Below, one piece after another: positions 1 to 25,797 of a stretch of 53,888 bases of DNA; within the stretch, counting starts at the first letter, position 1, and each line of letters opens with the position of its first letter. The notes under the pieces were generated by a model that was not told the origin of the DNA, searched no databases, and saw nothing but the letters and a program-made list of their open reading frames with translations. The DNA lies in IMG/VR virus record IMGVR_UViG_3300030108_000869, positions 1 through 53,888 of that record. One strand, written 5' to 3'. Made by a program: the position numbers and the translations under genes. Source of the DNA: a virus. Its lineage: Duplodnaviria; Caudoviricetes.

Positions 1-57
1 ATCTATCAATATACCATATGAGTATACAGTTATACATATAACACACAGATAATATAA

Positions 58-95
58 CGTGACCTAAGCATGTCGTCGAATAATAAAACTGCTTT
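58..95 (+). promoter_or_regulatory. H-type pseudoknot candidate upstream of ssb (possible translational operator)
   Basis: GAC(61-63)/GTC(72-74) stem, extendable with 58-60; loop AAGCA(66-70) pairs with TGCTT(90-94); U/A-rich spacer then AAAGG RBS before ssb. Confidence 0.6.
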
Positions 96-129
96 TAATT
101 TTAACCTCTAGCATAGAAAGGTACTATTC

Positions 130-618
130 ATGCAGATTATTTCAGAAGCACGTAATTATCGTATTGATAATGTCGAAATCAATTGGGCTAAATTAGCAAA
201 GCCTGTAAATCCATTTGGCACAGAGCAGTGGGAGCTACAAATAGCTACTACAGATAAAGCTGTTGCAGACGAGTGGTCTAATAATTATCTTAATGTCAAG
301 CAAGACAAATCAGATTCTTCTAAGTTCACAGTCTCGCTTAAGCGTAAAGCTCTTAAAGCTGATGGCACATCTAACGGTCCAGTAAGAGTAGTTGATAAAG
401 CTGCACAACCTTTTGCTGATGTATCAACAATCGGAAACGGTTCTGTTGGCAATGTTATTGTATATCAATATCCGTATGAAACAGCTGGTCGTAAAGGCAC
501 TGCTACATCTCTAACAGCAGTTCAAGTAACTGATCTCAAAGAGTATACAGCTCAAGCAGACTTCACGCCTATTGAAACACCTGCTGAATCTACAGAACAA
601 AATCAAATGCCGTTCTAG
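130..618 (+). CDS. ssb: single-stranded DNA-binding protein (T7 gp2.5-like OB fold)
   Basis: IGNGSVGNV and LTAVQVTDLKEY motifs; partly acidic tail ending MPF. Confidence 0.8.
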   Translation: MQIISEARNYRIDNVEINWAKLAKPVNPFGTEQWELQIATTDKAVADEWSNNYLNVKQDKSDSSKFTVSLKRKALKADGTSNGPVRVVDKAAQPFADVSTIGNGSVGNVIVYQYPYETAGRKGTATSLTAVQVTDLKEYTAQADFTPIETPAESTEQNQMPF

Positions 619-628
619 GAGACTTGCT

Positions 629-769
629 ATGATACTAACAGGTTTATTTCAAGGAATCGTTACTTTAATGCTGATTGCCGGTACTATTACAAGTGTAGAA
701 TCAACTACATCTCTGGATATTACTGGTCTCAAAGCAAAGAAAGAAGCTATATTCCAAACTAAAGATTAA
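629..769 (+). CDS. small membrane protein, 46 aa (start revised from 572)
   Basis: AGGAG RBS at 617-621, ATG 629, hydrophobic N-terminus. Confidence 0.6.
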   Translation: MILTGLFQGIVTLMLIAGTITSVESTTSLDITGLKAKKEAIFQTKD

Positions 770-792
770 GAGGCTCGCGCCTCTTTTTCAAA
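768..792 (+). promoter_or_regulatory. hairpin element 1, candidate virion-RNAP promoter
   Basis: AAGAGGC-TCGC-GCCTCTT-TTTCAAA; near-identical copy at 3136. Confidence 0.6.
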
Positions 793-902
793 GATATAAT
801 AAAACCAGAATGACGCTTAGTCGTAAGGTCGCAAAGCCTTTTATATCTTTTAGTCGTCTAGCACTGCTAATGCTTGAGTGTTCACAGCAGTGCTAGCCGG
901 CT
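790..902 (+). other. structured intergenic leader with two long hairpins
   Basis: AAAGATATAA(790-799)/TTATATCTTT(841-850); CTAGCACTGCT(858-868)/AGCAGTGCTAG(886-896). Confidence 0.55.
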
Positions 903-938
903 TCATTTTAAAGTTAACCTTCATCCGAAAGATTCATT

Positions 939-1433
939 ATGATTTATAGACAACCTCGTAACGGTAAAAACTTTTGGCGTTCTAAGTCATATAAATTTAC
1001 CGTAGCATCTAAAGACGATGAGAGTCTCATCGCACTTAAAAATACTATCGCTAAACAAAATGCTAACGTAAGAAAACATGCTAGAACATATAATATGGTT
1101 ACAGAATACGATATGCTCTACACAGTGCGCCTTATGGCGCGTGGCCCACGCAGATGGCATACCAAATTCAAAGCTCCTCTAGTTCGATACTTCAAAGGTG
1201 CTTACGGTATTCCTCAAACTCAAAAGCTATTACATGGCAATGCTGATTCTAATCTAAACCACAAGTTCGCCGAAGAGTTCGATGTATATGTACATCACGA
1301 TAGGCAAGGTATCGATAAACTAAAACATGAAATCGAAACCGGTCAAACTCCTAGCGTACAGCGTAAAATCGAAAAGCTTAAAAATAAAATATGGCGTTTA
1401 GAGTACGAAGCAAAGCAGGCTAAATATGCATGA
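939..1433 (+). CDS. hypothetical basic early protein
   Basis: 164 aa ORF in early cluster. Confidence 0.75.
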   Translation: MIYRQPRNGKNFWRSKSYKFTVASKDDESLIALKNTIAKQNANVRKHARTYNMVTEYDMLYTVRLMARGPRRWHTKFKAPLVRYFKGAYGIPQTQKLLHGNADSNLNHKFAEEFDVYVHHDRQGIDKLKHEIETGQTPSVQRKIEKLKNKIWRLEYEAKQAKYA

Positions 1434-1521
1434 AGAAAAAACTATATTCGAAATAATCGGCATAACTGTCGGTTTACTATTAGCTCTTCGTGCAGCTCTC
1501 TACTTCTTTTACTATAAATAA
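1426..1521 (+). CDS. 31 aa membrane peptide (MHEEKTIFEIIGITVGLLLALRAALYFFYYK)
   Basis: read manually; overlaps upstream stop; one TM helix. Confidence 0.5.
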   Translation: MHEEKTIFEIIGITVGLLLALRAALYFFYYK

Positions 1522-1535
1522 CTAAAAGGTTTATT

Positions 1536-1817
1536 ATGCCACTATTTCAAGTATATAAAGATATTATCAATACTTCTCAATCAGTTCTACAAGCTAGATC
1601 TGATGAACTTGAATCTATCGTAAATGATTTTATTGAAGAAACTGTTTTAGAGTTTCGTGAAAATATAACTCAACTAGCAGCTACTAATAATTTTACCGAT
1701 GAAGATATTAATATTATTATTACAGGCTGTCGCACTTCCGATGAATATAAAGATCTCGAAGACATCGAAAACTGCGAAATACGAAATGTTATGACTTCAA
1801 CATTCTGTAATTTCTAA
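1536..1817 (+). CDS. hypothetical acidic early protein
   Basis: 93 aa ORF, AAGG RBS. Confidence 0.7.
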   Translation: MPLFQVYKDIINTSQSVLQARSDELESIVNDFIEETVLEFRENITQLAATNNFTDEDINIIITGCRTSDEYKDLEDIENCEIRNVMTSTFCNF

Positions 1818-1819
1818 TT

Positions 1820-1984
1820 ATGGTAGTCGAATATAAAATAATACTCGATGAGAAAGAACGCGATTTGCTTCTTGATCTTATCGAACATCGTATATTCTTA
1901 CTTAAATTTGATACTGAACGCGAACCTAGCGAAGTCAAAGAAGAAATGACTAGGCTAGTACAACTAGGAGGTAGATTAACATGA
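1820..1984 (+). CDS. hypothetical protein, 54 aa
   Basis: read manually; fills gap; ATGA-coupled to next ORF. Confidence 0.6.
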   Translation: MVVEYKIILDEKERDLLLDLIEHRIFLLKFDTEREPSEVKEEMTRLVQLGGRLT

Positions 1985-2082
1985 ACCCTTTCAGAAAATA
2001 TTCTTTCTTCGAATGGATTATTATAATCGGTCTTACCGCTTTTATGATTACCATTATTGAAATGCATTTCCCATCGCTATGA
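1981..2082 (+). CDS. 33 aa membrane peptide
   Basis: AGGAGG RBS, ATGA overlaps at both ends, TM helix WIIIIGLTAFMITII. Confidence 0.6.
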   Translation: MNPFRKYSFFEWIIIIGLTAFMITIIEMHFPSL

Positions 2083-2294
2083 AACTATTTCATTTCGATG
2101 TCTCTGAGCGATCACCAGTCGATAATAAAGTAAGGTTGTTTGCCAAAGCAACTGCACTTGATTTAGGCTTCGTCACTCATGAAGAACTTAAAAATAAACA
2201 AAAGATTAATGGCACTCATTGGGTTCCATTAGGCTCATTTAAAAATAAAAAAGATGCTTATGATTATATAGGCGTTATTAAATCTTCACGGTAA
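2079..2294 (+). CDS. hypothetical protein
   Basis: 71 aa ORF, translationally coupled. Confidence 0.65.
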   Translation: MKLFHFDVSERSPVDNKVRLFAKATALDLGFVTHEELKNKQKINGTHWVPLGSFKNKKDAYDYIGVIKSSR

Positions 2295-2364
2295 CTATAG
2301 TGTAAAGGTTGCACGACAGTTTGTGATTCTGTTAGTTTGAGTTCAAGTCTCAATAGTTACCCCA
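2290..2364 (+). tRNA. trnH: tRNA-His(GTG)
   Basis: acceptor GTAACTA/TAGTTAC, encoded G-1:C73, anticodon loop TTGTGAT, T-arm TTGAG-TTCAAGT-CTCAA, encoded CCA. Confidence 0.93.
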
Positions 2365-2367
2365 AAG

Positions 2368-2476
2368 TTTTGCAATAAGAGTTAAGGCCTCCTAGTCGGT
2401 AGCGACGACATTAAATAACCACGCAACTTCTCTTGACAGGTTCCTTGAGCTCACTCGGCCTGGTGAGATTGCAAAA
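2368..2476 (+). ncRNA. candidate structured ncRNA directly 3' of tRNA-His
   Basis: closing stem TTTTGCAAT/ATTGCAAAA, inner stems GTCG/CGAC, AAGAG/CTCTT, CTCAC/GTGAG; no ORF. Confidence 0.45.
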
Positions 2477-2528
2477 ATAAGCCTAGAGCGGCTACAATGA
2501 AGTAGTACCTCTAGGCTTATTGTTTTTT
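2476..2528. terminator. intrinsic terminator, probably bidirectional
   Basis: 13-bp stem AATAAGCCTAGAG/CTCTAGGCTTATT with T-run, between convergent units. Confidence 0.75.
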
Positions 2529-2531
2529 CGA

Positions 2532-2543
2532 AACCCACATCCG
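2532..2543 (+). repeat. 12-bp direct repeat AACCCACATCCG, copy 1
   Basis: identical copy at 2992-3003. Confidence 0.85.
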
Positions 2544-2547
2544 ACGA

Positions 2548-2952
2548 CTAGTCACTTTCGGCTGAAAGTTCTGCAATTTTCTTTTGCAATTCTTCTTCAG
2601 ATAACTCTGAAGCATCTAACGATAAATTAGTCTGATCGATTCTTTGCAACTTAGGTTGCTCAAACTCTGCTAATGCTAACGCTAGTCTTTCAATAGTTTC
2701 ATGATCTTCTAGCTGTATAGCTTTAGCTAACTGTACTTTTAATATATCTACAGCTGAAGGCATATCACTAACAACTTCATCACGAATCTTTTTAAACTCA
2801 GAAGCTGATAATCTCATAGCTTCTCTTAACAATTTATTTTGACGTTTAGTCTCAGCACCTTTAGCTTGCATTTCTCGAGCTCTATTAGAATCCATAACTG
2901 GTCTTAGCTGTGCAAGTGAATTAGGATGCTTTCCATTATTTTCATAACCCAT
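2548..2952 (-). CDS. terminase small subunit-like protein
   Basis: N-terminal KHPNSLAQLRP..AREMQAKG and C-terminal LSEEELQKKIAEL typical of TerS-like proteins; GGAG RBS before ATG 2952. Confidence 0.55.
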   Translation of the reverse strand: MGYENNGKHPNSLAQLRPVMDSNRAREMQAKGAETKRQNKLLREAMRLSASEFKKIRDEVVSDMPSAVDILKVQLAKAIQLEDHETIERLALALAEFEQPKLQRIDQTNLSLDASELSEEELQKKIAELSAESD

Positions 2953-2966
2953 AATTTTCTCCAATA

Positions 2967-2984
2967 TCTTTTAGGAGACATTTA
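2967..2984 (-). promoter_or_regulatory. phage RNAP (late) promoter candidate TAAATGTCTCCTAAAAGA
   Basis: one of three copies, each just upstream of a minus-strand RBS. Confidence 0.7.
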
Positions 2985-2991
2985 TTTTAAC

Positions 2992-3003
2992 AACCCACAT
3001 CCG
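2992..3003 (+). repeat. 12-bp direct repeat AACCCACATCCG, copy 2
   Basis: identical to 2532-2543. Confidence 0.85.
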
Positions 3004-3014
3004 GAGTATTCGCA

Positions 3015-3185
3015 ATGAAAACACATATCAGAATAATAAATCCAATGGCTAGAGCTATGAATGAAGGTAGAAGGCGTCAATATGCGCATAAAATTATTCC
3101 GGATAAAACTAAATATAATCGTAAGAAATCTAAACAAGTGGCTCACGCCACTTTTTCTAATAATATAAATAAAGAAAGGAACTAG
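3015..3185 (+). CDS. small basic protein, 56 aa
   Basis: read manually; GGAG RBS; NPMAR..IIPDKTKYNRK pattern seen in small phage proteins. Confidence 0.6.
   Translation: MKTHIRIINPMARAMNEGRRRQYAHKIIPDKTKYNRKKSKQVAHATFSNNINKERN
3136..3160 (+). promoter_or_regulatory. hairpin element 2, candidate virion-RNAP promoter
   Basis: AAGTGGC-TCAC-GCCACTT-TTTCTAA; compensatory A:T to T:A change relative to copy 1. Confidence 0.6.
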
Positions 3186-3186
3186 T

Positions 3187-3528
3187 ATGGCTAAAGTAAC
3201 CGCATCAACTGTACTAAAAGAAGCCGCTGAACTTAAAGAAAAGAAGCAGGTAGACTATCAAGGTGATAGATATACTGAAGAAGATTATTTCCCATTCGGC
3301 AATATATCTTACTTACACATGATTCATACTAAGTACTTAAGAATTATGAACTTAGCACAATCAGATGGAACAACTAACTTTGAATCTCTCGAAGATTCAC
3401 TCACAGATATGTCAGTATACTGTGCAATGTTTTCTGCATACTTACAGAATAAAAAGATGGAAGAAAACGATTATGATATAAAAGAAGCAAGCATTATAGA
3501 CAAAATTAATTTTGAGAAAGGCTTATAA
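3187..3528 (+). CDS. DUF1599/Nmad1-like alpha-helical nucleotide-modification-associated protein
   Basis: KKQVDY..KYLRIMNL..ESLEDSLTDMSVYC pattern. Confidence 0.6.
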   Translation: MAKVTASTVLKEAAELKEKKQVDYQGDRYTEEDYFPFGNISYLHMIHTKYLRIMNLAQSDGTTNFESLEDSLTDMSVYCAMFSAYLQNKKMEENDYDIKEASIIDKINFEKGL

Positions 3529-3760
3529 AGTGCAACATAAAAATCTATTTGATCACAATAAATTTGGTGATGCTATTAAATACAATGTATTAGTATGCAA
3601 ACAACAATATTCTGAAAAGAAAATTGCAATCAAAGTAGAAGAAATTGAATCAATTGAAGAATGGAATAATGATTCTTTATGTGTATACATGAGATCAGGT
3701 ACCAGACTTTATGTTGAAGGTAACCTAACAGATATATTCGCAGATAAGAAAGGTATATAA
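3512..3760 (+). CDS. hypothetical protein
   Basis: 82 aa ORF, start uncertain. Confidence 0.55.
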   Translation: MRKAYKVQHKNLFDHNKFGDAIKYNVLVCKQQYSEKKIAIKVEEIESIEEWNNDSLCVYMRSGTRLYVEGNLTDIFADKKGI

Positions 3761-3762
3761 CT

Positions 3763-4014
3763 ATGAGTATGACTAGACAAAACTTTGAAGCACTCGCAGA
3801 AATGTGTGCAGATGAAACTAACGAAGAATTACTTTGTGAAGCTACTATTGATTTACTTGCAGCTTTTTGCAGATCTCAAAATAGTAGATTTGATTCTACA
3901 AGATTTCATAGTAGAATCGCTAGCCTCAAAGCTAAACGTAAACTACAACAACGTATGGCTATGAAAGGCGTTAACAAAGAATGGTTTGATTCACATGTTG
4001 AGGTGATAATGTAA
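3763..4014 (+). CDS. hypothetical protein
   Basis: 83 aa; MTRQNFEALA..NSRFDSTRF pattern common in small phage proteins. Confidence 0.7.
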   Translation: MSMTRQNFEALAEMCADETNEELLCEATIDLLAAFCRSQNSRFDSTRFHSRIASLKAKRKLQQRMAMKGVNKEWFDSHVEVIM

Positions 4015-4865
4015 TGCAAGTATATAATCAAAAGTATTTAAATATAGCTGAAGATATACTAAGATACGGTCATCAAAGAGAAGGAAGGAATGGTGTAGTT
4101 CGCTCTATACCATTCCAAGATCTTATGTTTGATATGCGAAATGATTATTTTCCGCTAATAACATCACGTAAAATATACTATGATGGTGTATTTGGTGAAT
4201 ATGCCGCTATGATTAGAGGGCCTAAAAATATTAAAGACTTTCAGAAATGGGGGTGTAATTACTGGAATGAGTTCGGAGATCCTGATACTGGCGAGTTACG
4301 TCTTAGTTATGGTAATAGTTGGCTTGATTTTAATGGTGTTAATCAAATAGAAGAATTATTATATAATCTTAAACACCATAGATATGATAGAAGACATATA
4401 ATTACTGCATGGAATCCCGCAGATAAAGATCTTACACTACCACCATGTCATTTCTTATATCAATTTTATGTAGATCAAACTGTAGCATCATTTGATCATG
4501 CTAGAAACGGACCTAACGATAATGATACTTCAGATACTTTATCTATGATAATGTATTCGAGATCAGGTGATTGGATGGTTGGTGTACCTAGTGACATGGT
4601 ATTTGGTGCAACTATGTTAGCACATATATCTGCATTAGTTAACTTAAAACCTGGAACACTTAAATTATTTGTAGCAGATGCTCATATTTATCTTGAACAT
4701 TTTACAAAAGCCCAGGAGCAAATAGAAAATGGTTATCTATGGGTAGATGCTAAGTATAGCATACAGCCACAAGTAGGTTTAAACTATAATGAGTTTCAAC
4801 CAAAACATATGGACATATATAATTATGAACCTAGAGGAAATATAAAGTATGAACTTAAAACGTAA
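4014..4865 (+). CDS. thymidylate synthase-family enzyme, predicted dCMP (hydroxy)methylase
   Basis: DRRHIITAWN, LPPCH catalytic Cys, RSGD, DAHIY; Asp (GVPSD) at the position of E. coli ThyA Asn177. Confidence 0.85.
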   Translation: MQVYNQKYLNIAEDILRYGHQREGRNGVVRSIPFQDLMFDMRNDYFPLITSRKIYYDGVFGEYAAMIRGPKNIKDFQKWGCNYWNEFGDPDTGELRLSYGNSWLDFNGVNQIEELLYNLKHHRYDRRHIITAWNPADKDLTLPPCHFLYQFYVDQTVASFDHARNGPNDNDTSDTLSMIMYSRSGDWMVGVPSDMVFGATMLAHISALVNLKPGTLKLFVADAHIYLEHFTKAQEQIENGYLWVDAKYSIQPQVGLNYNEFQPKHMDIYNYEPRGNIKYELKT

Positions 4866-5382
4866 TGAAAATTATTCAGAATGGTATGATGACATTAGAA
4901 TAATGCATGATAAATTCGGTGCTAAAGAATGGGTTAGACGCCAATTCGAAGCAAGAAATTATAAATTATTAAATGATTTCTTAGCATTTAGATTAGACTT
5001 TTTAGAAGAAGAGTTTGAAGAAACTCAAGCAGCTTTCCTAAATAAAGATCACACAGAAGTAGTTGATGGTTTAATTGATCTTATTGTTATCGCAATAGGT
5101 ACACTAGAATTATTTAACTGTGATGCTGATAAAGTATGGAAAGAAGTACATAAATCTAATATGGCTAAAGAACCTGGAGCAAATAAATCCAGGAAAAATC
5201 CATTTGGTTTACCAGATATGGTTAAACCAGAAGGTTGGAAAGGACCTGAAATAACTAAATATGATTGCGGAATACTATCAGATATATTTGAATCAGAAAA
5301 AGAAAGACTTCAAATGTTAAGAGAAAAACGTGATCTTGAAAATGAATTCAAAGGTCAAGTAGCAAACTCACAATATGAATAA
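4849..5382 (+). CDS. MazG-like/PRA-PH-like NTP pyrophosphohydrolase
   Basis: EEEFEE..EVVDGLIDL..EVHKSNMAK..KPEGW. Confidence 0.85.
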   Translation: MNLKRNENYSEWYDDIRIMHDKFGAKEWVRRQFEARNYKLLNDFLAFRLDFLEEEFEETQAAFLNKDHTEVVDGLIDLIVIAIGTLELFNCDADKVWKEVHKSNMAKEPGANKSRKNPFGLPDMVKPEGWKGPEITKYDCGILSDIFESEKERLQMLREKRDLENEFKGQVANSQYE

Positions 5383-5391
5383 GGAGTATAT

Positions 5392-5592
5392 ATGAGTAAA
5401 GACGATTTACAAGAAACTAATGTTTCACCAGAAGCAGAACCAATTACACTTCATCAAATTAGAGCTATGATTGTAGGAGATGAAGATAAAGTAAAACTAT
5501 TAAATATATTTGATAATTTAGTAGCTGACAATAATAAACTTAAAGCTGAGCTTGATGCCGGCAGAAAGGCTAACGATGAGGCTAACGTTTGA
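5392..5592 (+). CDS. hypothetical protein
   Basis: 66 aa, AAGGAG RBS. Confidence 0.7.
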   Translation: MSKDDLQETNVSPEAEPITLHQIRAMIVGDEDKVKLLNIFDNLVADNNKLKAELDAGRKANDEANV

Positions 5593-7411
5593 TATAGAAA
5601 CGGACGGTCTTGATGCGACTAAAATATGGTGTCTAGTGATACAAAACCTGGACACCAATCGTATCATGAAATATACTGACGAATCAGATAAATATGATGG
5701 ACCTATTAAAATGGGTTTATCATTATTAGAAAATGCAAAATTATTAATAGCACATAATGGTATTGGTTTTGATGCATTAGTAATTAAAAGATTATATAAT
5801 ATTGATTTATATAATGGAGATAGGTTCTTCGATACATGGATAGCATCTCAAGTATTAAATTACAGACGACCACATAAACATGGGTTAGCTGGATGGGGTG
5901 AATATCTTAGATACCATAAAGGTAACTATGATGACTGGTCACATTTTTCTGATAGAATGATGGAGTATTGTGTAAGAGATGTTAAATTAAACTCTGTAAT
6001 ATATAGTCATCTTACATCAGAATTAAATAGAATAGCAATGAAGCAACCATTAATACGTAAAGGTTTACGAAATGAAATGGCTGCTGCTAAGTTTGATGCA
6101 TACTGTCAATACTATGGCTGGGCTTTTAATAAAGATAAAGCTAATTTATTATTAGATAATATTGAAAGTAACATGAATGCTATCGAAAAAGTAATTGAAC
6201 CTGAATTACCACCAGTTACTAGACTAATTGATAAGAAACCTAAGACACCTAAGTTTACTAAGAAAGGCGAATATACTGCAGCTACTGCACGTATGCTAAG
6301 TGAATTTCTTAATCAAGAAGTTAAACCTAATCATACATTTAAATGGGCAGCCGGTAGAGAGTTTCAAAGAAAAGAAACTAAGAAAGCTAACATGGGTAAT
6401 CTTGCACAAGTTAAAGAGTATCTATATTCAATTGGATGGGAACCTGATGATTGGAAAATGGAAAGATTAGGTAGAGAGTTCATTAAGAAAACACCTAAAC
6501 TTACATCAACTTCATTAGAAAAGCTTGGTGATAAAGGTAAAATGATTGATGAATGGACTACACTTAGATCACGTAGAGGTGTTGTTGAAGGCTGGCTTAA
6601 TAACTTAAAGAATAATAGATTACATGGTAAACTATGGATAATAGGTACACCTACATTTAGATGTCGCCATGAAGTTATTGCTAATCTTCCAGCAGCTAAT
6701 GCTAAACTTGGTAAATCAATTAGAGAATTACTAACAGCAGAACCTGGAAGAAAAATAGTAGGTGCTGACTCTAGTGGTAATCAATTTAGATCTCTTGCTC
6801 ATTATGTTAAAGATAAAAGTCTTACAAATCAAATACTTAGCGGTGATATTCATCAGTATAACGCAGACATTATTAATACTGATAGACGAACTGCAAAGAC
6901 TTGGATCTATGCATTTCTATTTGGTGCAGGTGCAACTAAACTTGGTAAAGTATTAACTGGTACTGGTAACTTAAGTGCTGGTAAAGATTCTATTGAAAGA
7001 TATGGTGATGCTATACCTGGTTTGAAATCATTAAAAGATAATCTAATATCAATGTGGAATATAGCAGACGGTCATAATAGAAATGTCGAAGGATATATTC
7101 CTGGTCTTGATGGTCGTAAAGTTTATGTACCGCAAGATTATCAAACACTTAACTATTTGTTACAAAGTTGCGAAGCTATAACTACAAAAGCTGCATTGTA
7201 TTATCAAATGAATAAGATTAAATCAGAACATCTTGATGCTGAACCTAGACTTTATTATCACGATGAAGTAGCATGGTCAGTAGCAGAAGAAGATGCTGAT
7301 AGAGTATTAGAAATACTTACAGAATCATTTGCCGAAGGTCCTAAAGAAATGGGCGTAGATATTATGGCAGGTGAAGGTACAATTGGTAATAACTACGCGG
7401 AGGTACACTAA
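5576..7411 (+). CDS. polA: DNA polymerase, family A (3'-5' exonuclease plus polymerase)
   Basis: FDIETDG, HNGIGFD, YCVRDV exo motifs; ADSSGNQFR, RRTAKTWIYAFLFG, YHDE; start revised to MRLTFD. Confidence 0.95.
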   Translation: MRLTFDIETDGLDATKIWCLVIQNLDTNRIMKYTDESDKYDGPIKMGLSLLENAKLLIAHNGIGFDALVIKRLYNIDLYNGDRFFDTWIASQVLNYRRPHKHGLAGWGEYLRYHKGNYDDWSHFSDRMMEYCVRDVKLNSVIYSHLTSELNRIAMKQPLIRKGLRNEMAAAKFDAYCQYYGWAFNKDKANLLLDNIESNMNAIEKVIEPELPPVTRLIDKKPKTPKFTKKGEYTAATARMLSEFLNQEVKPNHTFKWAAGREFQRKETKKANMGNLAQVKEYLYSIGWEPDDWKMERLGREFIKKTPKLTSTSLEKLGDKGKMIDEWTTLRSRRGVVEGWLNNLKNNRLHGKLWIIGTPTFRCRHEVIANLPAANAKLGKSIRELLTAEPGRKIVGADSSGNQFRSLAHYVKDKSLTNQILSGDIHQYNADIINTDRRTAKTWIYAFLFGAGATKLGKVLTGTGNLSAGKDSIERYGDAIPGLKSLKDNLISMWNIADGHNRNVEGYIPGLDGRKVYVPQDYQTLNYLLQSCEAITTKAALYYQMNKIKSEHLDAEPRLYYHDEVAWSVAEEDADRVLEILTESFAEGPKEMGVDIMAGEGTIGNNYAEVH

Positions 7412-7887
7412 TGATTGTAGATATCGCAATAACTAAAGATTTTATAAATCAACGTGATGCTCGCGCTGAAATATATAATCCAAGAAACAGATCATTCGAA
7501 CAATTAAAACTTGATATTGAATGTGAAGTATTTGAATGGCATATGATTGACAGAGGTACTTGGCAAGATCATATTGACTGGCAAGTTGATGGTGTTGATC
7601 AATTATATGGTAATGTAGATGTTAAGTTTATTAAAACCTGGTATAATATTCCATGTAATAAAATGATTTATTTATTAAAGCAAAGAGATTTAACAGATAA
7701 CTTTTACTTTTGTGAATGGCATGAAAGACCTCAACGATTATTAGTTGCAGGTGACATGGTTAAAGTTAATACTCTTGGTATACTAGAATACTGGGAACTA
7801 ATGGATATAATTAAACCTTCTAAATATAACGGATTTTATGCAGATATTCGTAAACATTTAGAAAGAAAGGATAAAGATGCAAACTAA
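7411..7887 (+). CDS. PD-(D/E)xK endonuclease resembling T4 endonuclease IV (DenB)
   Basis: NP..E.FE, WQVD..YGNVDVK core; C-terminal IIKPSKYNGFYADI matches recalled DenB VVRKSNYNGWYLSI. Confidence 0.6.
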   Translation: MIVDIAITKDFINQRDARAEIYNPRNRSFEQLKLDIECEVFEWHMIDRGTWQDHIDWQVDGVDQLYGNVDVKFIKTWYNIPCNKMIYLLKQRDLTDNFYFCEWHERPQRLLVAGDMVKVNTLGILEYWELMDIIKPSKYNGFYADIRKHLERKDKDAN

Positions 7888-8659
7888 ACATATGTTTGTA
7901 GATACAGATTCTATATTCTTTAAGATTGCATACAAATCTAAGAATCAATCTGAGCTACGTAAAAACTTTAATAGTTTTTGTAACAACATGATAATGGAAG
8001 TTTCTGATAAAATAATTAATCCTTTTACTGAAGAAATAAATGTTTTATACGCAGTTAAAGGTAAAGGAAACTATCGTAAAGATTTAAGTCCTGATTACAA
8101 ATCAAACCGTCCTGATCTTGATAAGAAAGTAAGAGATAAATTAAATTACTTACATAGATATTCAGTATCTAAAGGTGCTATTCAAGCAGATGGTATGGAA
8201 GCAGATGACTTAGTTTCTATATGGGCACACGAAGCTCTCGATAGAAAAGAAGAATATGTAATTTGTGGTATAGATAAAGATTTACTACAGATACCAGGTC
8301 ATCATTACAATTATGGTAAAGATACTTGGCAGCTTATTAATGAAGAAGAAGCATTACATAATCTATATATTCAATGTTTGACTGGTGATAATACAGATAA
8401 TATTCCAGGTCTAAAAGGTATTGGTCCTAAGAAAGCTCAAAAGATATTAGCTGGTGTACCATTATCAAGACAATGGAATAAAGTTAAATCTGCCTGGAAA
8501 GAACACGGAGAAACTGAAAAGCAATTAGAACTTAGTCATAAGTTATTGCGGATGCTAAAATCATGGGAAGAATATGAAGATATTAAAGCATACATTCAAG
8601 ATAAAACCGTTGTCAGCAAATCAAATGACATACAGGAACAAGTCGATAAAGTCAGCTAA
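7877..8659 (+). CDS. 5'-3' exonuclease/RNase H (T7 gp6-like)
   Basis: YKSNR, EADD, DKDL, GDNTDNIPGLKGIGPKKA. Confidence 0.92.
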   Translation: MQTKHMFVDTDSIFFKIAYKSKNQSELRKNFNSFCNNMIMEVSDKIINPFTEEINVLYAVKGKGNYRKDLSPDYKSNRPDLDKKVRDKLNYLHRYSVSKGAIQADGMEADDLVSIWAHEALDRKEEYVICGIDKDLLQIPGHHYNYGKDTWQLINEEEALHNLYIQCLTGDNTDNIPGLKGIGPKKAQKILAGVPLSRQWNKVKSAWKEHGETEKQLELSHKLLRMLKSWEEYEDIKAYIQDKTVVSKSNDIQEQVDKVS

Positions 8660-8996
8660 GTATATCGAATATCAAAATGAATTAAGAGATGAACTTCAAG
8701 GGGTCAAATGGCCCTTTGAAAAGTCTGATCAATTAGAATTTGATATTATTGCTGGTGTATCTAATAAGATGGCAGACCTAGATAATGTGGTTAAGCCACT
8801 ATTAGATACATACCAGGGTATATTTGAAGAATTTAATGACAATAAAGTTTATCATATAACATTAGATAAACAAATAGTAACTAAAGGTAATGAATATTTA
8901 TTTGTTAAAGTCGAACGATGGCCTGAACAAATACCTTTAGAAATAGTAAACGACGAAGAGTTGTTAGAAAGGACAGTACTTCATGTCAAGGTATAA
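8574..8996 (+). CDS. RusA-like Holliday junction resolvase
   Basis: KPLSAN, DLDNVVKPLLD, NDNKV. Confidence 0.8.
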   Translation: MKILKHTFKIKPLSANQMTYRNKSIKSAKYIEYQNELRDELQGVKWPFEKSDQLEFDIIAGVSNKMADLDNVVKPLLDTYQGIFEEFNDNKVYHITLDKQIVTKGNEYLFVKVERWPEQIPLEIVNDEELLERTVLHVKV

Positions 8997-10602
8997 ACAA
9001 ACAGCATGTCCCGAATGTAATTCATCAGATGCATTTACAATCTATGAAGATGGTGCATACTGTTTCTCATGTCAATACTCAACTAAGAAAGTAAACATTA
9101 TGAATGACTTAGAAACTGTTGCTGATAATAAAGATCAGCTAACATTAACCGATATATCAGAGCTAAATAGTTTTGCAATTACATCTCGTGGTATATCTAA
9201 ACAAGTTGTAGATCACTTTGGAATTAAGATGGCAGTAAATCCTGATGGTTCCGGTGGTTCACACTTCTATCCTTACACTGCTAATGGTAAGGTAACAGTA
9301 GTTGCATATAAAGAACGTAAGTTACCTAAAAACTTTATAGTACATGGTAACTTTAATAATATAGAATTGTTTGGCCAATCAGTTGCTAGCGGTGGTAAAA
9401 CACTTGTTATAACTGAAGGTGAACTAGATGCTTGTGCTATTGCACAAAGCTTTTTAGATAAATACAATAAAATATTTCCAGTAGTATCTATACCAAGTGC
9501 ATCTGGTTGTAAAGTTATACTTGAACAAAGAGAATGGATTAGACGATTTGAATCCGTAATATTATTCTTTGATAAAGATGATGCTGGGCAAGCTGCTGTA
9601 CAAAAAGTAGCTAAGATAATTGGTGCAGATAAAGTTAAAGTTGCACAGTTAACAGAGAAAGATCCTTGTGAACAATTATTAAAACATGGATCAGCTAGCT
9701 TATTACAAGCTTATTGGAACGCAGAAACCTGGTCTCCAGCTGGTATTGTAATGGGTGAAAAGATTTGGCGTGAATATATCGAAAGAAAGAACACTGAATC
9801 TATTCCATATCCTGAATGCTTAGAAGGATTAAATGAAAAACTTAAAGGAATACGTCATGGCGAAATTACTTTATTTACTTCAGGTACGGGTTCCGGTAAG
9901 AGTACAGTTGTTAAAGAGATTGTGCTTAACTTACTCGCTAAGACTACTGATAAGGTCGGTCTCATATCTCTCGAAGAATCCGTCGGAGATACCGCTGAGA
10001 AATTTATTAGCATGTACTTACAAAATAATAACTTACACGAAGAAGGTGTGTCAGAAGAGCGACAAAGACATGGATTTTCATCTGTATTTGGAACTGAAAA
10101 GCTTGTACTGCTTGACCACCAAGGTTCCGTCGGAGACGACAGTCTCATTGATAAGATTGAATATATGGCTCTTATGGGTTGTAAGTATATGGTTCTTGAC
10201 CACATTACCATCGCAGTTAGTGAGGGTAGTGAAGGGCTAAGTGGTAACGAAGCCATTGATAAAGTTATGAGTGACTTACTTAAGATAGTTAAGAAGCATA
10301 ACATATGGTTATGTTTAATATCTCATCTTAGAAAAGCTCCAGGTGGTGGCATGTCTTTTGAAGAAGGTAAGTTAGCATCCATCGATGATATTAAAGGTAG
10401 TGGTTCTATCAAACAAATATCATTTGACATAGTAGCATTTGCTAGAAACTTAGTAGCTGAAAATAGTATTGAAAGAAACACTATTAAGTTTAGAGTATTG
10501 AAATCTAGATTTACTGGTCTTACTGGTTCAGCTGGTTCTGCTACTTATGATAATAACACAGGTAGGCTTACAGCAGTAAGTCAGGAATTTAGTAGTTTAT
10601 GA
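8983..10602 (+). CDS. primase-helicase (T7 gp4-like)
   Basis: CPEC..CFSC Zn finger, TOPRIM ITEGELD/FDKDDAG, Walker A SGTGSGKST, LDHITI, KGSGSIKQ, KSRFTG. Confidence 0.95.
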   Translation: MSRYKQTACPECNSSDAFTIYEDGAYCFSCQYSTKKVNIMNDLETVADNKDQLTLTDISELNSFAITSRGISKQVVDHFGIKMAVNPDGSGGSHFYPYTANGKVTVVAYKERKLPKNFIVHGNFNNIELFGQSVASGGKTLVITEGELDACAIAQSFLDKYNKIFPVVSIPSASGCKVILEQREWIRRFESVILFFDKDDAGQAAVQKVAKIIGADKVKVAQLTEKDPCEQLLKHGSASLLQAYWNAETWSPAGIVMGEKIWREYIERKNTESIPYPECLEGLNEKLKGIRHGEITLFTSGTGSGKSTVVKEIVLNLLAKTTDKVGLISLEESVGDTAEKFISMYLQNNNLHEEGVSEERQRHGFSSVFGTEKLVLLDHQGSVGDDSLIDKIEYMALMGCKYMVLDHITIAVSEGSEGLSGNEAIDKVMSDLLKIVKKHNIWLCLISHLRKAPGGGMSFEEGKLASIDDIKGSGSIKQISFDIVAFARNLVAENSIERNTIKFRVLKSRFTGLTGSAGSATYDNNTGRLTAVSQEFSSL

Positions 10603-11039
10603 ACGAAGAAAAACAACGTAGATATGATGAATTATATTTAGATATAGCTACGAGGATAAGTTTAATGTCTCACGATACTGATCACAAGGTAGGATCAGTT
10701 ATCGTTAGAGATAATAATATACTTGCGTTTGGATTTAATGGCATGCCTACAGGTATGAATAATAACTGTAAGAATGCTAATGGTTCTACTAAACAAGAAG
10801 TTATACATGCAGAAGCTAATGCTATCTGCAAGTTAGCGAGGAGCACGGGGAGCTCTGAGGGTGCTACATTATATAGCACTCTCTCCCCTTGTGTGGAATG
10901 CGCTAAGCTCATAATGCAAAGTGGTATAACTAGAATTATATTTAGAGAAACATATAAAGATGAAGCAGGTATTTTACTACTATTAAATAATAATAAAGAA
11001 GTGAAGGGCATAAAATGGAAGGACAACTTAAGTATCTAA
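10599..11039 (+). CDS. dCMP deaminase
   Basis: VGSVIV, GFNG, HAEANAI, SPCVEC. Confidence 0.92.
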   Translation: MNEEKQRRYDELYLDIATRISLMSHDTDHKVGSVIVRDNNILAFGFNGMPTGMNNNCKNANGSTKQEVIHAEANAICKLARSTGSSEGATLYSTLSPCVECAKLIMQSGITRIIFRETYKDEAGILLLLNNNKEVKGIKWKDNLSI

Positions 11040-13204
11040 AGCATAAGATAACAAAATCTAAAGCTCATATAGCTTGTAACCTTTTAAAGGAAACTTCTTT
11101 AGAAGACTTAAAAGCATACTTAGTATTTTCAATGGATACTATTCAACAACATTTCACTCGTAATAGTATGAGAGGAAACAAATCATACCAAGGTGAAGCT
11201 AATCTTACTCATTTAAGTGTAGCTATTGGCACACATATATTAACAGAAATTAATTATAATAATGAAAAAGATGCACCTTGGGATTGGTTTAAACTTCGAG
11301 TTATGATGGGTGATTTATTTTTAGAACCATTCTATCAGACACATCAAATTAATATAGGTAAAACTAGAGATAATACATTTATACCTATAGAATCTCTTGA
11401 TAGAAGTCTTAAAAGAAGCCGAGCACATTATATAGTTGTACCTGAGAAATGGGATTTAGCTATACCAGAAGGCAGCGAAAACTTACTTAAAGGTACAGTA
11501 TTTGAAAAGCCTGAGCCTATAAATAATTTAATGCAACCTACAGGAAGACCTGTAATTAAAGGCTGGACTCTTGATAAAAGTAAACTATTTAAACCTTACT
11601 TAGCTAATAGTTTTATTAAGAGTATGAATGTGCTACAACAAACTGAATGGAAAATTAATAATAATGTTAGGGATATTTTAAATCGTAATAGAACTAAAAT
11701 ACTAAATCAATATAAAAGTTTTCCTAAGAAATATAAATCTAAAATTATAGAGTTTGATTTAACAATGGCTAGATCAAAACTTATTGGTGATAACTCATTT
11801 TATCAATATACTGAAGCAGATTATCGTGGTAGAATTTATTATACTACACCCTTCTTAAACTTTCAGGGTAACGATATAGCAAGAGGTCAAATGCTTTTTG
11901 CTAATGGTAAACAAATGAATGACAGTGGTTTAAGAAGACTTAAAATACATATAGCCTGCGCTTATAATCAAACTTATAATAAAAATAATCTTCCAAACTG
12001 GTTAACTACCGATTACATTCCTTATTTAAATGATGAAGGATTAGATGATATATCTGTAGACAAAATGAGTTTAGAAGATCGTGAAGCATGGACTGATAAT
12101 AATGTTGATATGCTATTTAATTTAGCTGACAAAGAAATTATAGATCCCAATGCTGAAAAACCTATTACTTTATTAGCAAGTATCCTAGAAATTAAAGATG
12201 CTTTAAATAAAGATGAATATATTACTTATCTTCCTATACCTATTGATGGTTCTAATAATGGTTGGCAACACTTATGTGCTATGTCAAAAGACCAGAAAGC
12301 TGGGGAGCTTGTAGGTATTGTACCTCAAGAAATTCAAAAAGATTTTTATGTACAATGTGCTAAAGATTTAATTGAAAGAGTACCAGAATGGTTTGAAGAA
12401 AGACAAATGCCAATGAAACATATACGTAAAGGTATAGCTAAACGCGGTTCAATGACTCGAGCATATAGTGCTGGAGCACAAAAGATTGCAGAGAATATGT
12501 ATCTTGACTGTCATGTGGAAGGATATTTAGATAAGTATAATATTACTAAAGAAGATTGTGAGATGCTTGCAAAGCATTTAATTAAAGCAATTGATAAAGT
12601 TTGTGCAGGTCCATTACAAACTATGAAATTTCTACAGAAGATTGCAGAAGCTGAGATAGCCTCTGAATATGCTAAGTTTATTAAACAAAAAGCAATAAAA
12701 TGGACGACACCATCAGGATTTCCTGTTGTATATGAAGCATTTGTTGAGAATGAATTCAAAGAAAAAGCTATTATAAGCTGTAGTGAACGTGCTATTAAGC
12801 CTACAATAACTAAAGAAGATGGTACTAAAGAAGAAACTGATACTATAAGAATACAACATGTAGGTAAAGAGCCTACAGATAAACCTAAGATCAGATCTTT
12901 TATGTCAGGTATCTCACCTAACTTTGTACATTCAATGGATGCAGCTCATATGGCTAAAGTTATTTCTAAATGGGGGGAAGATTTCGGCGCCGTACATGAT
13001 TCGTTTAGTGTACATGCGTGTGATGTTGATGAGTTATTACAACTTATTAAAGATCAGTTTATAGAAATGTATAGTTACCCTAACTTTTTTGAAGTAATTG
13101 AGCGTATGATTATAACAAACCCTGATAATTTTAATTATAACCAACCTAAGTTAGGAAACTTAGATATTAGAGAGGTAAATAAAAGTGAGTACTTCTTCGC
13201 ATAA
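11015..13204 (+). CDS. single-subunit T7-family RNA polymerase (729 aa)
   Basis: DYRGRIY, PIPIDGSNNGWQH (motif A), RKGIAKRGSMTRAY (B), PNFVHSMDA, VHDSF (C). Confidence 0.95.
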   Translation: MEGQLKYLKHKITKSKAHIACNLLKETSLEDLKAYLVFSMDTIQQHFTRNSMRGNKSYQGEANLTHLSVAIGTHILTEINYNNEKDAPWDWFKLRVMMGDLFLEPFYQTHQINIGKTRDNTFIPIESLDRSLKRSRAHYIVVPEKWDLAIPEGSENLLKGTVFEKPEPINNLMQPTGRPVIKGWTLDKSKLFKPYLANSFIKSMNVLQQTEWKINNNVRDILNRNRTKILNQYKSFPKKYKSKIIEFDLTMARSKLIGDNSFYQYTEADYRGRIYYTTPFLNFQGNDIARGQMLFANGKQMNDSGLRRLKIHIACAYNQTYNKNNLPNWLTTDYIPYLNDEGLDDISVDKMSLEDREAWTDNNVDMLFNLADKEIIDPNAEKPITLLASILEIKDALNKDEYITYLPIPIDGSNNGWQHLCAMSKDQKAGELVGIVPQEIQKDFYVQCAKDLIERVPEWFEERQMPMKHIRKGIAKRGSMTRAYSAGAQKIAENMYLDCHVEGYLDKYNITKEDCEMLAKHLIKAIDKVCAGPLQTMKFLQKIAEAEIASEYAKFIKQKAIKWTTPSGFPVVYEAFVENEFKEKAIISCSERAIKPTITKEDGTKEETDTIRIQHVGKEPTDKPKIRSFMSGISPNFVHSMDAAHMAKVISKWGEDFGAVHDSFSVHACDVDELLQLIKDQFIEMYSYPNFFEVIERMIITNPDNFNYNQPKLGNLDIREVNKSEYFFA

Positions 13205-13447: not shown

Positions 13448-13487
13448 AAAAATATCCCCGGGCTTAAAAGCTCGGGGTATTTTTTTT
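13448..13487. terminator. bidirectional intrinsic terminator between the two arms
   Basis: CCCCGGGCTT-AA-AAGCTCGGGG stem flanked by A-run and T-run. Confidence 0.85.
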
Positions 13488-13734: not shown

Positions 13735-13752
13735 TCTTAAAGGAGACATTTA
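13735..13752 (-). promoter_or_regulatory. phage RNAP (late) promoter candidate TAAATGTCTCCTTTAAGA
   Basis: second copy of the motif. Confidence 0.7.
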
Positions 13753-24792: not shown

Positions 24793-24793
24793 A

Positions 24794-25794: not shown

Positions 25795-25797
25795 AAT

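What the first reader, a model, noticed from the sequence alone, without database searches (positions are those of the whole stretch)
768..3160. Two covarying hairpins that look like N4 vRNAP promoters but have a tetraloop
Seen: AAGAGGC-TCGC-GCCTCTT-TTTCAAA (768) and AAGTGGC-TCAC-GCCACTT-TTTCTAA (3136). They share stem length, a compensatory A:T/T:A swap, a TC(G/A)C loop and a similar downstream ATATAA..TAAA tract. The bottom strand reads AAAAA-GAGGC-GCGA-GCCTC. Knowledge (recalled): the N4 P2 template strand is AAAA-GAAGC-GGA-GCTTC. Copy 2 lies about 30 nt before the whole replication operon, a poor place for a terminator. Inference: these are cognate promoters of the virion RNAP with a 4-nt GYGA loop instead of N4's triloop.
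Basis: partly seen in the sequence, partly recalled or inferred. Interest (0 to 1): 0.85.

Follow-up and report, generated by a model that had tools for sequence, protein, structure and literature searches.

The report
Likely hairpin promoters of injected polymerase
Two matching DNA hairpins in an uncultured marine phage are most likely start signals read by an RNA polymerase that the phage carries in its particle, a four-base-loop variant of the unusual system known from coliphage N4.

Summary
Two hairpins (768-785 and 3136-3153, + strand) are 19 of 22 bases identical, with one compensatory stem change, loops TCGC/TCAC and TTTTTC behind them.

They are not a chance pair. A 97-98% identical relative carries two more copies in the 303 bases that this record lacks, upstream of the SSB gene and with no same-strand ORF before them.

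Five fully fetched relatives each carry 3-6 hairpins of a lineage-specific family. All lie on the early-gene strand, between terL and the DNA polymerase gene. Loops and 3' flanks are conserved and stems covary; some stems are pure A-T (RNA dG about -1 kcal/mol). Three lineages have no T-run. A conserved C lies 11 bases after the loop whatever the stem length.

These features fit a polymerase-read DNA hairpin, not a terminator. The bottom strand reads GC-GNNA-GC, the tetraloop sister of N4's GC-GGA-GC promoter mini-hairpin.

Hairpin type changes with the divergent 1231-aa T7-fold polymerase in the ejection-protein module, not with the conserved 729-aa T7-like polymerase, which has its own T7-style linear motif.

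No 5' ends were mapped. A terminator or dual role for these two GC-rich copies remains possible. Promoter reading: about 0.6.

The parts
768..790 (+). Hairpin 1: 7-bp stem, loop TCGC, then TTT-C-A. Bottom strand is A5-GAGGC-GCGA-GCCTC. It starts at the stop codon of the 46-aa ORF 629-769 and lies 150 bases before the ORF at 939.
3136..3159 (+). Hairpin 2: 7-bp stem, loop TCAC, then TTT-C-T-A. It lies 33 bases before the first gene of the 10-kb replication operon, inside the 3' end of the small ORF 3015-3185.
13750..17445 (-). 1231-aa protein (ATG at 17445; the ORF is open from TTG at 17463). It has a T7-like single-subunit RNA polymerase fold. It is the last gene of the ejection-protein-like block (1079-aa lysozyme-domain protein, 1365-aa virion protein). 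Proposed reader of the hairpins.
11015..13204 (+). 729-aa T7-like RNA polymerase (PF00940), the last large gene of the + strand operon. Proposed reader of the linear T7-style motif, not of the hairpins.
130..618 (+). gp2.5-like SSB gene. In relatives one or two hairpins of the family lie about 55-170 bases upstream of its start. The window record begins 12 bases after the nearer one.
3187..13204 (+). Replication and nucleotide-metabolism operon with no intergenic gap over 10 bases. Any early promoter for the 729-aa polymerase gene must lie upstream of 3187.
2973..2983 (-). One of three copies of the T7-style linear motif AAATGTCYCCT on the late-gene strand (the others start at 13751 and 31807). 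This is the second promoter class, which tracks the 729-aa polymerase.
13456..13477 (+). Ordinary strong terminator at the convergence of the two arms (9-bp stem, T8, RNA dG -16.0). It is a contrast to the hairpin family.

Best explanation
The two hairpins belong to a family of DNA hairpin promoters on the early-gene strand of an uncultured group of about 55-kb marine podophages. Proposed mechanism, inferred by analogy with N4: after injection, the inverted repeat extrudes from supercoiled DNA. The bottom (template) strand forms a compact hairpin capped by a G-N-N-A tetraloop closed by C:G (GC-GNNA-GC). The co-injected 1231-aa single-subunit polymerase binds the loop and upper stem. It uses the A-run (T-run on the coding strand) as a spacer and starts rightward about 13-14 bases from the loop centre, near A790 and A3159. 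Hairpin 1 would drive the small early genes from 939 to tRNA-His. Hairpin 2 would drive the replication operon, including the 729-aa T7-like polymerase, which then reads the linear T7-style motif before the late genes. Shown here: the family, its strand and region restriction, covariation, fixed spacing, lack of terminator features in many members, and the polymerase fold. Inferred: extrusion, which enzyme reads the hairpins, the start sites, and virion packaging. The two GC-rich copies in this window may also stop read-through RNA from upstream (dual role).
For: (1) More copies with nothing to terminate. In L007/L140 (97-98% identical to both window ends) the 303 bases missing from the window hold the terL start and two further copies, both followed by TTTTCTATAATATT. 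No + strand ORF lies between terL and them.
(2) In relative L141 the hairpin 2 homologue is the only + strand element in the 98 bases between the divergent terS-like gene and the operon's ATG. The small ORF and the 12-mer seen in the window are absent there.
(3) Genome-wide scans of the five fetched relatives. Family copies on the early-sense strand within the early region: G001 5, G002 3, G003 6, G004 4, G005 4. There were 0 on the other strand. One extra weak 4-bp hit in G001 lay outside the early region.
(4) In 80 SSB-anchored loci (643,483 bases) the composite motif occurs 31 times on the early strand and 5 times on the other; 17 copies are unique.
(5) In the alignment of 20 copies, C at column 27 (11 bases after the loop) is kept in 19 of 20 for stems of 4 to 9 bp. 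Also, 7 of 8 stem pairs change on both sides, and 91.3% of cells pair against 66.3% in shuffles (0 of 500 shuffles reach this).
(6) RNA stability of the 17 family members typed ranges from -1.1 to -11.4 kcal/mol. A-T-only stems score -1.1 to -1.3. The genome's real terminator scores -16.0.
(7) No T-run follows the hairpins of G004, G005 and the L201/L202/L206/L214 lineage, yet loops and 3' flanks are conserved.
(8) Hairpin type tracks the 1231-aa polymerase. G003-G005 share 78-87% identity in the 729-aa polymerase and a common linear motif, but only 37-48% in the large polymerase, and they have three different hairpin families.
(9) The bottom strand GC-GNNA-GC is one of the two 'mini-hairpin' DNA motifs; N4's promoter is the other, GC-GGA-GC (PMC13037366). 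The N4 P2 template AAAA-GAAGC-GGA-GCTTC appears in the oligo of PMC13492108. The four A's act as a ruler (PMC4496689).
(10) LUZ7 has hairpin promoters with 3-4-base loops and starts 13-15 bases from the hairpin. Its tandem early promoters sit before its ssDNA-binding protein gene (PMC9163698).
Against: No transcript 5' ends, binding or packaging data exist. The two window copies look like moderate intrinsic terminators: dG is -9.5 and -9.3 with a T5 run, and the simple scan flags 3136 on the + strand. Copy 1 starts at a stop codon, copy 2 lies inside the end of a small ORF, and in G002 and G003 the copies also follow ORF ends by 10-35 bases. So position alone fits both readings. A rightward T7-style motif lies upstream of the tandem copies in relatives, so RNA does arrive there and could be attenuated. 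With N4's exact spacing the start would fall on a pyrimidine. The loops of G004 (AGAA) and G005 (ACAAG) are purine-rich on the top strand, not the bottom, so one template-strand rule does not fit all lineages. The alignment rows were picked for perfect stems and TNNC loops, which inflates pairing and makes T13 and C16 invariant by selection. Raw tetraloop tallies are mixed: TAAC 6 against GTTA 1, but GTAA 6 against TTAC 3. The polymerase shows no sequence-level link to N4 gp50.
Confidence: 0.6

Rival explanations
1. They are ordinary intrinsic terminators or attenuators only. Hairpin 1 ends the SSB/small-ORF unit. Hairpin 2 attenuates entry into the replication operon, as a leader ORF plus terminator.
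For: GC-rich 7-bp stems with dG -9.5 and -9.3, followed by T5. The scan lists 3136 as terminator-like on +. Both copies abut ORF ends. Unrelated phages carry many GGGGC-TCRC-GCCCC + T-run terminators with the same loop.
Against: Family members have A-T-only or 4-bp stems (dG -1.1 to -2.6) and some have no U-tract. Loop and 3' flank are conserved, with fixed loop-to-C spacing. Copies lie upstream of SSB with no ORF before them. In L141 the operon would be left without any promoter. RNA-library contigs run across hairpin 1 (X2 642-851; X1 706-790 joined to 865-903); this is weak evidence, because contigs may come from DNA.
Confidence: 0.15
2. They are hairpin promoters, but read by the 729-aa T7-like polymerase or by a host enzyme with a phage factor, not by the 1231-aa protein.
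For: LUZ7 middle promoters, read by its second polymerase, are GC-rich hairpins with 3-4-base loops (PMC9163698). Nothing here shows which enzyme binds.
Against: The 729-aa polymerase gene sits at the far end of the operon behind hairpin 2, so it cannot make its own first transcript. A T7-style linear motif that is conserved together with that polymerase already accounts for it. Hairpin families differ among G003-G005 although their 729-aa polymerases are 78-87% identical.
Confidence: 0.1
3. They act in RNA as protein-binding hairpins, for example nut/boxB-like antitermination sites, processing sites or translational operators.
For: Conserved loops with covarying stems are also typical of RNA operators. 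The elements lie on the transcribed strand in leaders. The G005 loop ACAAG recalls P22-type boxB loops; this is my recollection and was not tested.
Against: A-T-only 8-bp stems are barely stable as RNA (dG about -1) but are good cruciform formers. There are 4-6 copies per genome, and the conserved element extends 11+ bases 3' of the loop at fixed spacing. No RNA-binding regulator was identified. Rfam gave only tRNA-His in 1-4000.
Confidence: 0.1
4. They are DNA sites for replication or recombination, such as primase or origin hairpins or cassette junctions.
For: Mini-hairpin motifs also occur at priming sites (PMC13037366). The early arm is mosaic: the terS-like cassette moves between lineages.
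Against: Every copy has the same orientation and lies just upstream of an early gene or operon. Several copies per genome is unusual for an origin.
Confidence: 0.05

Closest known systems
Coliphage N4 early promoters P1-P3, read by virion RNA polymerase gp50
   Same: Both have a short GC-cored inverted repeat on the early strand in several copies at the start of the early arm. The template strand forms a G...A-capped mini-hairpin closed by C:G, followed by an A-run towards the start; the window stems GAGGC/GTGGC compare with N4 GAAGC. The genome layout is the same: an early and replication arm converging on a late arm that ends with the polymerase gene.
   Different: The loop has four bases (GNNA) instead of three (GGA/GAA). 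The A-run has 5 bases rather than 4. The polymerase is a free-standing 1231-aa protein with no detectable sequence similarity to gp50, instead of the middle domain of a 3500-aa protein. Sister lineages use quite different loops, including triloops in L143 and a pentaloop in G005. Function is untested.
Pseudomonas phage LUZ7 early and middle hairpin promoters (ONT-cappable-seq)
   Same: LUZ7 promoters are hairpins with stems of >=4-6 bp and 3-4-base loops, with starts 13-15 bases from the hairpin. Tandem early promoters precede an ssDNA-binding protein gene.
   Different: LUZ7 is a 74-kb schitovirus with the giant polymerase and a preferred G start. Here the first purine at that distance is A, and nothing is mapped.
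Intrinsic (Rho-independent) terminators
   Same: The two window copies have a GC-rich stem-loop followed by T5 on the coding strand.
   Different: Family members lack stable stems or U-tracts, yet keep the loop, the 3' flank and the spacing.
Roseobacter phage CRP-7 (CRP-7-type group), nearest cultured phage by the 729-aa polymerase
   Same: 35% identity over 98% of the T7-like polymerase. The architecture is the same, with three 1200-1370-aa proteins converging on the polymerase gene.
   Different: CRP-7 gp33 (1235 aa) shows no similarity to the 1231-aa polymerase family. No hairpin family was seen in the intergenic DNA of its first 10 kb.

Membership tests
N4-type virion-polymerase hairpin promoter | Inverted repeat with a 5-7 bp stem whose template strand forms a stable hairpin | tested here: met
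   The window copies have 7-bp perfect stems. Family stems are 4-10 bp with 7 of 8 pairs covarying.
N4-type virion-polymerase hairpin promoter | Three-base loop with a central purine (-11G), GC-GNA-GC mini-hairpin | tested here: not met
   The loop has four bases. The bottom strand is GC-GCGA-GC or GC-GTGA-GC, which is the GCGNNAGC class of PMC13037366. It is a variant, not a member in the strict sense.
N4-type virion-polymerase hairpin promoter | Run of A on the template strand between the hairpin and the start site | tested here: met
   Five A's on the bottom strand of both window copies, and T-runs in the G000-G003 lineages. This is absent in the G004, G005 and L201-type lineages.
N4-type virion-polymerase hairpin promoter | Several copies, one orientation, at the head of the early arm | tested here: met
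   There are 2 in the window plus 2 in the missing 303 bases of the near-identical relative. Five relatives carry 3-6 each, all early-sense.
N4-type virion-polymerase hairpin promoter | Bound and used by the virion polymerase, with the start at a fixed distance | not testable with these tools
   Only Logan contigs of metatranscriptomes were on hand, and they show no molecule ends.
Intrinsic terminator | Stable GC-rich RNA stem-loop | tested here: inconclusive
   Met by the two window copies (-9.5 and -9.3). Not met by the members with dG between -1.1 and -5.5 among the 17 family members typed.
Intrinsic terminator | U-tract directly after the stem | tested here: inconclusive
   Counted from the 5-bp GC core there are five T's, but only TTT after the full 7-bp stem. 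The scan lists 3136 on + but not 768 on +. No T-run is present in three sister lineages.
Schitoviridae gp50-type virion RNA polymerase | T7-like single-subunit polymerase fold with invariant catalytic residues | tested here: met
   AF2 model with pLDDT 82.5 and pTM 0.81. Foldseek matches T7, mitochondrial and N4 polymerases at E 2e-13 to 2e-10. Invariant residues include D762, K850, Y858-G859 and D1041. Naming these as motifs A, B and C is my recollection.
Schitoviridae gp50-type virion RNA polymerase | Sequence homology to gp50 and the giant ~3500-aa three-domain protein | tested here: not met
   No PDB sequence hit by phmmer or by two profiles. The best 150 of 297 family clusters are all at most 1681 aa. 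There is no tblastn hit in 50,697 phage records.
Schitoviridae gp50-type virion RNA polymerase | Packaged in the virion and ejected | not testable with these tools
   Only context is available. The gene lies next to a 1365-aa protein with virion-protein PHROG hits and a 1079-aa protein with a tail-lysozyme domain. The N-terminus MAIN(V/I)(N/D)V is shared with the 1365-aa protein.

The most novel reading that the evidence does not exclude
A widespread, uncultured marine podophage group (297 clusters at 50% identity of the polymerase) runs a two-polymerase cascade that may not need the host enzyme. An unfused, fast-evolving virion polymerase reads DNA hairpin promoters whose loops have diversified between lineages (tri-, tetra- and pentaloops). 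This would give a natural set of orthogonal hairpin-promoter/polymerase pairs and would show that structure-read promoters are not peculiar to N4-like phages.
Probability: 0.4. Interest if true: 0.8.

Novelty: new variant of a known kind. Interest (0 to 1): 0.66.

Why it matters
Promoters read as extruded DNA hairpins are so far known from N4-like phages with their giant polymerase. If the reading is right, the same principle exists in a separate, abundant marine phage group with a small free-standing polymerase that cannot be linked to gp50 by sequence. Loop and flank rules there shift from lineage to lineage together with the polymerase.

That would make promoter-polymerase co-evolution directly testable with oligonucleotides and one recombinant protein. 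It would also give a rule for annotating early transcription units in these metagenomic genomes.

The finding further warns that hairpin-plus-T-run elements in such phages should not be annotated as terminators by default.

Tried and rejected
Ideas and steps that led nowhere:

1. ArfA-like leader idea. The small basic ORF 3015-3185 reminded me (recollection) of ArfA, whose mRNA is cut or terminated inside the ORF. Pfam gave no hit. In G001 the hairpin lies before the ORF, not in it. L141 lacks the ORF altogether. Dropped as a general explanation.

2. The 12-mer AACCNNCATCCG as the virion-polymerase promoter. It occurs at window 916, 2532 and 2992 and in G001 and G002. No match at up to one mismatch lies in the early regions of G003-G005, which also have the polymerase. 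It usually sits 11-13 bases before a start codon. Left unexplained.

3. A sigma-70 promoter before 3187. The scan found promoter-like sites at shuffle level (75 against 68.0 +/- 7.8). In L141 the best -35-like and -10-like hexamers are 29 bases apart (my count).

4. RNA data. Four metatranscriptome runs were laid. They are held only as contigs, with sparse cover and no molecule ends. Parts without cover say nothing. The contigs crossing hairpin 1 are only a weak hint.

5. Sequence links to solved polymerases: none. PHROGs had no family for the 1237-aa ORF. Pfam gave only noise.

6. First IMG/VR pattern scan. Of the 52 stretches, most are unrelated GGGGC...GCCCC terminators. It served only to find close relatives.

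7. Co-occurrence test. Of 16 stretches with the G001-type hairpin, the multi-copy ones are G001 itself, two short fragments and one 21-kb fragment. None of the 10 other records tested held the polymerase, but all are 1-38% complete. Inconclusive.

8. CRP-7. gp33 is not related to the polymerase family. No hairpin family was seen.

9. Raw tetraloop tallies are mixed and are not used as evidence.

10. Literature. Searches listed no paper on hairpin promoters or a virion polymerase in CRP-7-type or similar marine phages. I read listings plus passages of six papers, not whole texts. Supplements were closed, so the LUZ7 promoter lists (PMC9163698) were not seen.

Full report
THE RECORD

The window is a whole IMG/VR virus record (53,888 bases, estimated 96% complete). 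Its layout is that of N4 in miniature.

The + arm runs as follows:
- a gp2.5-like SSB gene (130-618)
- a 46-aa ORF (629-769)
- small ORFs from 939 to 2294, and tRNA-His (2291-2364)
- a gap-free replication and nucleotide operon (3187-13204) that ends with a 729-aa T7-like RNA polymerase (PF00940)
- a strong terminator at 13456-13477

The arm is interrupted by one minus-strand terS-like gene (2548-2964).

The - arm runs from terL at the right end to three large proteins. The last is the 1231-aa protein at 13750-17445.

THE OBSERVATION

They share 19 of 22 bases. One stem pair is swapped A:T to T:A, the loops are TCGC and TCAC, and TTTTTC follows. The pattern is unique to these two sites and to the + strand.

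The shared downstream ATATAA..TAAA tract is real. At copy 1 it lies in a 74-base segment missing from close relatives.

THE POLYMERASE

The 1231-aa protein has no Pfam, PHROG or PDB sequence match. An AlphaFold2 model of residues 201-1237, built with 31 homologues, scored pLDDT 82.5 and pTM 0.81. It matches T7, mitochondrial and N4 virion polymerases at Foldseek E 2e-13 to 2e-10. N4 is not the closest match.

A profile of the catalytic part finds 297 clusters at 50% identity (235 at E <= 1e-10). The best 150 are all free-standing proteins of at most 1681 aa. No GenBank phage record has a homologue.

The protein sits next to a 1365-aa protein with virion-protein hits and a 1079-aa protein with a tail-lysozyme domain. 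It shares the N-terminal MAIN(V/I)(N/D)V with the former. That it is packaged in the virion is an inference from this context.

MORE COPIES IN THE SAME LINEAGE

L007/L140 is 97-98% identical to both ends of the window. It bridges them with 303 bases that the window lacks.

Those bases hold the terL start and two further hairpins. One has a 4-bp stem and loop TCTC. The other has an A-T-rich 8-bp stem with a GC core and loop TCAC. Each is followed by TTTTCTATAATATT. They lie upstream of SSB with no same-strand ORF before them. The window starts 12 bases after the second one.

In L141 (SSB 80% identical) the homologue of hairpin 2 is the only + strand element in the 98 bases between the divergent terS-like gene and the operon's ATG.

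THE FAMILY IN RELATIVES

I fetched five whole relatives, G001-G005. Synteny is conserved. Each relative has its own hairpin family:
- G001: five copies of AAATTT-RY-TAWC-RY-AAATTT-TTC, plus one long hairpin behind SSB.
- G002: three copies with core GGC-TARC-GCC. Two have only a 4-bp perfect stem, and one of these has no T-run.
- G003: six copies with loop ATYC and flank TTTAAAAC. The stems are either GCGCGAT or pure A-T.
- G004: four copies ...ATG-ARAA-CAT... without a T-run.
- G005: four copies ...G-ACAAG-C... without a T-run.

Genome-wide, these families occur only on the early-sense strand between terL and the DNA polymerase gene. None lies on the other strand. The only extra hits are weak 4-bp ones: two on the + strand and one on the - strand in G000, and one in G001.

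More lineages appear among 80 SSB-anchored loci. One has loops ATTC/ATAC/ATCC followed by CCTTAAATA and no T-run. One has triloops (L143). The composite G000-type motif occurs 31 times on the early strand and 5 times on the other strand in 643,483 bases.

WHY NOT PLAIN TERMINATORS

- RNA stabilities of the 17 family members typed span -1.1 to -11.4 kcal/mol. A-T-only stems lie at about -1. The genome's real terminator has -16.0.
- Several lineages have no U-tract.
- In an anchored alignment of 20 copies, a C lies 11 bases after the loop in 19 of 20, for stems of 4 to 9 bp. The T-run shortens as the stem lengthens. A terminator needs no such ruler; N4 promoters have one.
- Seven of eight stem pairs change on both sides. 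The rows were chosen for perfect stems and TNNC loops, so this overstates the case.

WHICH POLYMERASE

A linear motif, AAATGTCYCCT followed by TAAAG or TATAAGGGGGG, resembles T7-type promoters. In the window it lies on the late strand before the terS-like gene, before a small ORF after the large polymerase gene, and before the gene starting at 31767. In relatives it lies before terL, with a rightward copy before the tandem hairpins.

Its core is conserved across all six genomes, as is the 729-aa polymerase (77-88% identity within G000-G002, 78-87% within G003-G005). The large polymerase is only 33-46% and 37-48% identical within the same sets. The hairpin families differ most where it differs. 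With six genomes this is suggestive, not proof.

The 729-aa polymerase gene lies behind hairpin 2 with no intergenic gap. Something other than that polymerase must therefore start there.

COMPARISON WITH THE KNOWN SYSTEM

- PMC4496689 (passages). N4 early promoters are conserved from -17 to +1 and have a GC-rich centre at -11 flanked by inverted repeats. They have a 3-base loop with a sheared G:A pair. Four A's act as a ruler, and extrusion depends on gyrase and SSB.
- PMC13492108 (passages).
- PMC13037366 (abstract and passages). It names GCGNAGC and GCGNNAGC as the two very stable DNA mini-hairpins. It places N4's GCGGAGC in the first class and lists GTTA and other middle bases as tolerated in the second.
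- The window's bottom strands are GC-GCGA-GC and GC-GTGA-GC.
- PMC9163698 (passages). LUZ7 early hairpin promoters have 3-base loops and starts 13-14 bases from the hairpin centre. Its middle promoters have 3-4-base loops. Tandem early promoters lie before its ssDNA-binding protein gene.

By the LUZ7 spacing, the starts here would fall at A790 and A3159. This is inference.

WHAT SPEAKS AGAINST

- The two window copies would fold well as RNA and carry T5. One is flagged by the simple terminator scan.
- They abut ORF ends.
- A rightward T7-style motif upstream of the tandem copies means that RNA reaches them.
- The G004 and G005 loops are purine-rich on the top strand.
- N4's exact spacing would give a pyrimidine start.
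- No ends of RNA molecules could be seen. The four metatranscriptome runs are held as contigs. Two of these contigs run across hairpin 1, which at most hints at read-through.

VERDICT

The hairpins are best read as a tetraloop variant of N4-type hairpin promoters, probably for the 1231-aa polymerase (about 0.6). A possible added terminator effect for these two GC-rich copies remains open.

The nearest cultured phage by the T7-like polymerase is roseophage CRP-7 (35% identity). It lacks a detectable homologue of the large polymerase.

Noticed in passing
window - strand, motif starts at 2983, 13751 and 31807; relatives G001-G005: A T7-style linear motif AAATGTCYCCT(A/T)(A/T)AAG lies before late-strand genes. 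In relatives, back-to-back divergent copies lie between terL and SSB, and the rightward copy is followed by GGGGGG. It is probably the promoter of the 729-aa polymerase.
   Followed up: partly
window 916-927, 2532-2543, 2992-3003 (+): A 12-mer AACCNNCATCCG is repeated on the early strand, usually 11-13 bases before a start codon, and on both sides of the terS-like cassette. It is present in G001 and G002. No early-region match at up to one mismatch was found in G003-G005. Its function is unknown.
   Followed up: partly
window 1 and 53888; L007 6812-7114: The record lacks exactly 303 bases that join its two ends in a 97-98% identical relative. These hold the terL start codon, the divergent promoter region and two hairpins. 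The break falls 12 bases after a hairpin.
   Followed up: yes
window 3015-3185 (+): A small basic ORF (56 aa) is conserved in G001 and G002 (motif ...DPKY..KVVKNK.KYNRK...). It recalls ArfA from memory, but Pfam gives no hit. It is absent from relative L141.
   Followed up: partly
window 791-864: A 74-base segment with its own inverted repeat (AAAGATATAA...TTATATCTTT) lies just behind hairpin 1. It is absent from relatives L007 and L035 and is skipped in one RNA-library contig.
   Followed up: partly
window 2548-2964 (-): A terS-like gene sits inverted inside the early arm in G000-G002, but between terL and portal in G003-G005. It appears to be a mobile cassette with its own late-type promoter.
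   Followed up: partly
window 17419-17445 and 21527-21553 (-): The large polymerase (MAINVNVPG) and the neighbouring 1365-aa protein (MAINIDVSG) share their first residues. This may be a packaging or ejection tag.
   Followed up: partly
L143, about 300 to 1480 bases upstream of SSB: A sister lineage has four triloop hairpins AGAG-NC-(GTT/TTC)-GN-CTCT followed by TCCTATAAC. On the bottom strand two of them are GAA-capped like N4 promoters.
   Followed up: no
L220 (CRP-7) 17859-29367: The cultured roseophage CRP-7 has the same convergent architecture, with three proteins of 1223-1368 aa after its T7-like polymerase. The protein in the polymerase position shows no similarity to this family.
   Followed up: partly
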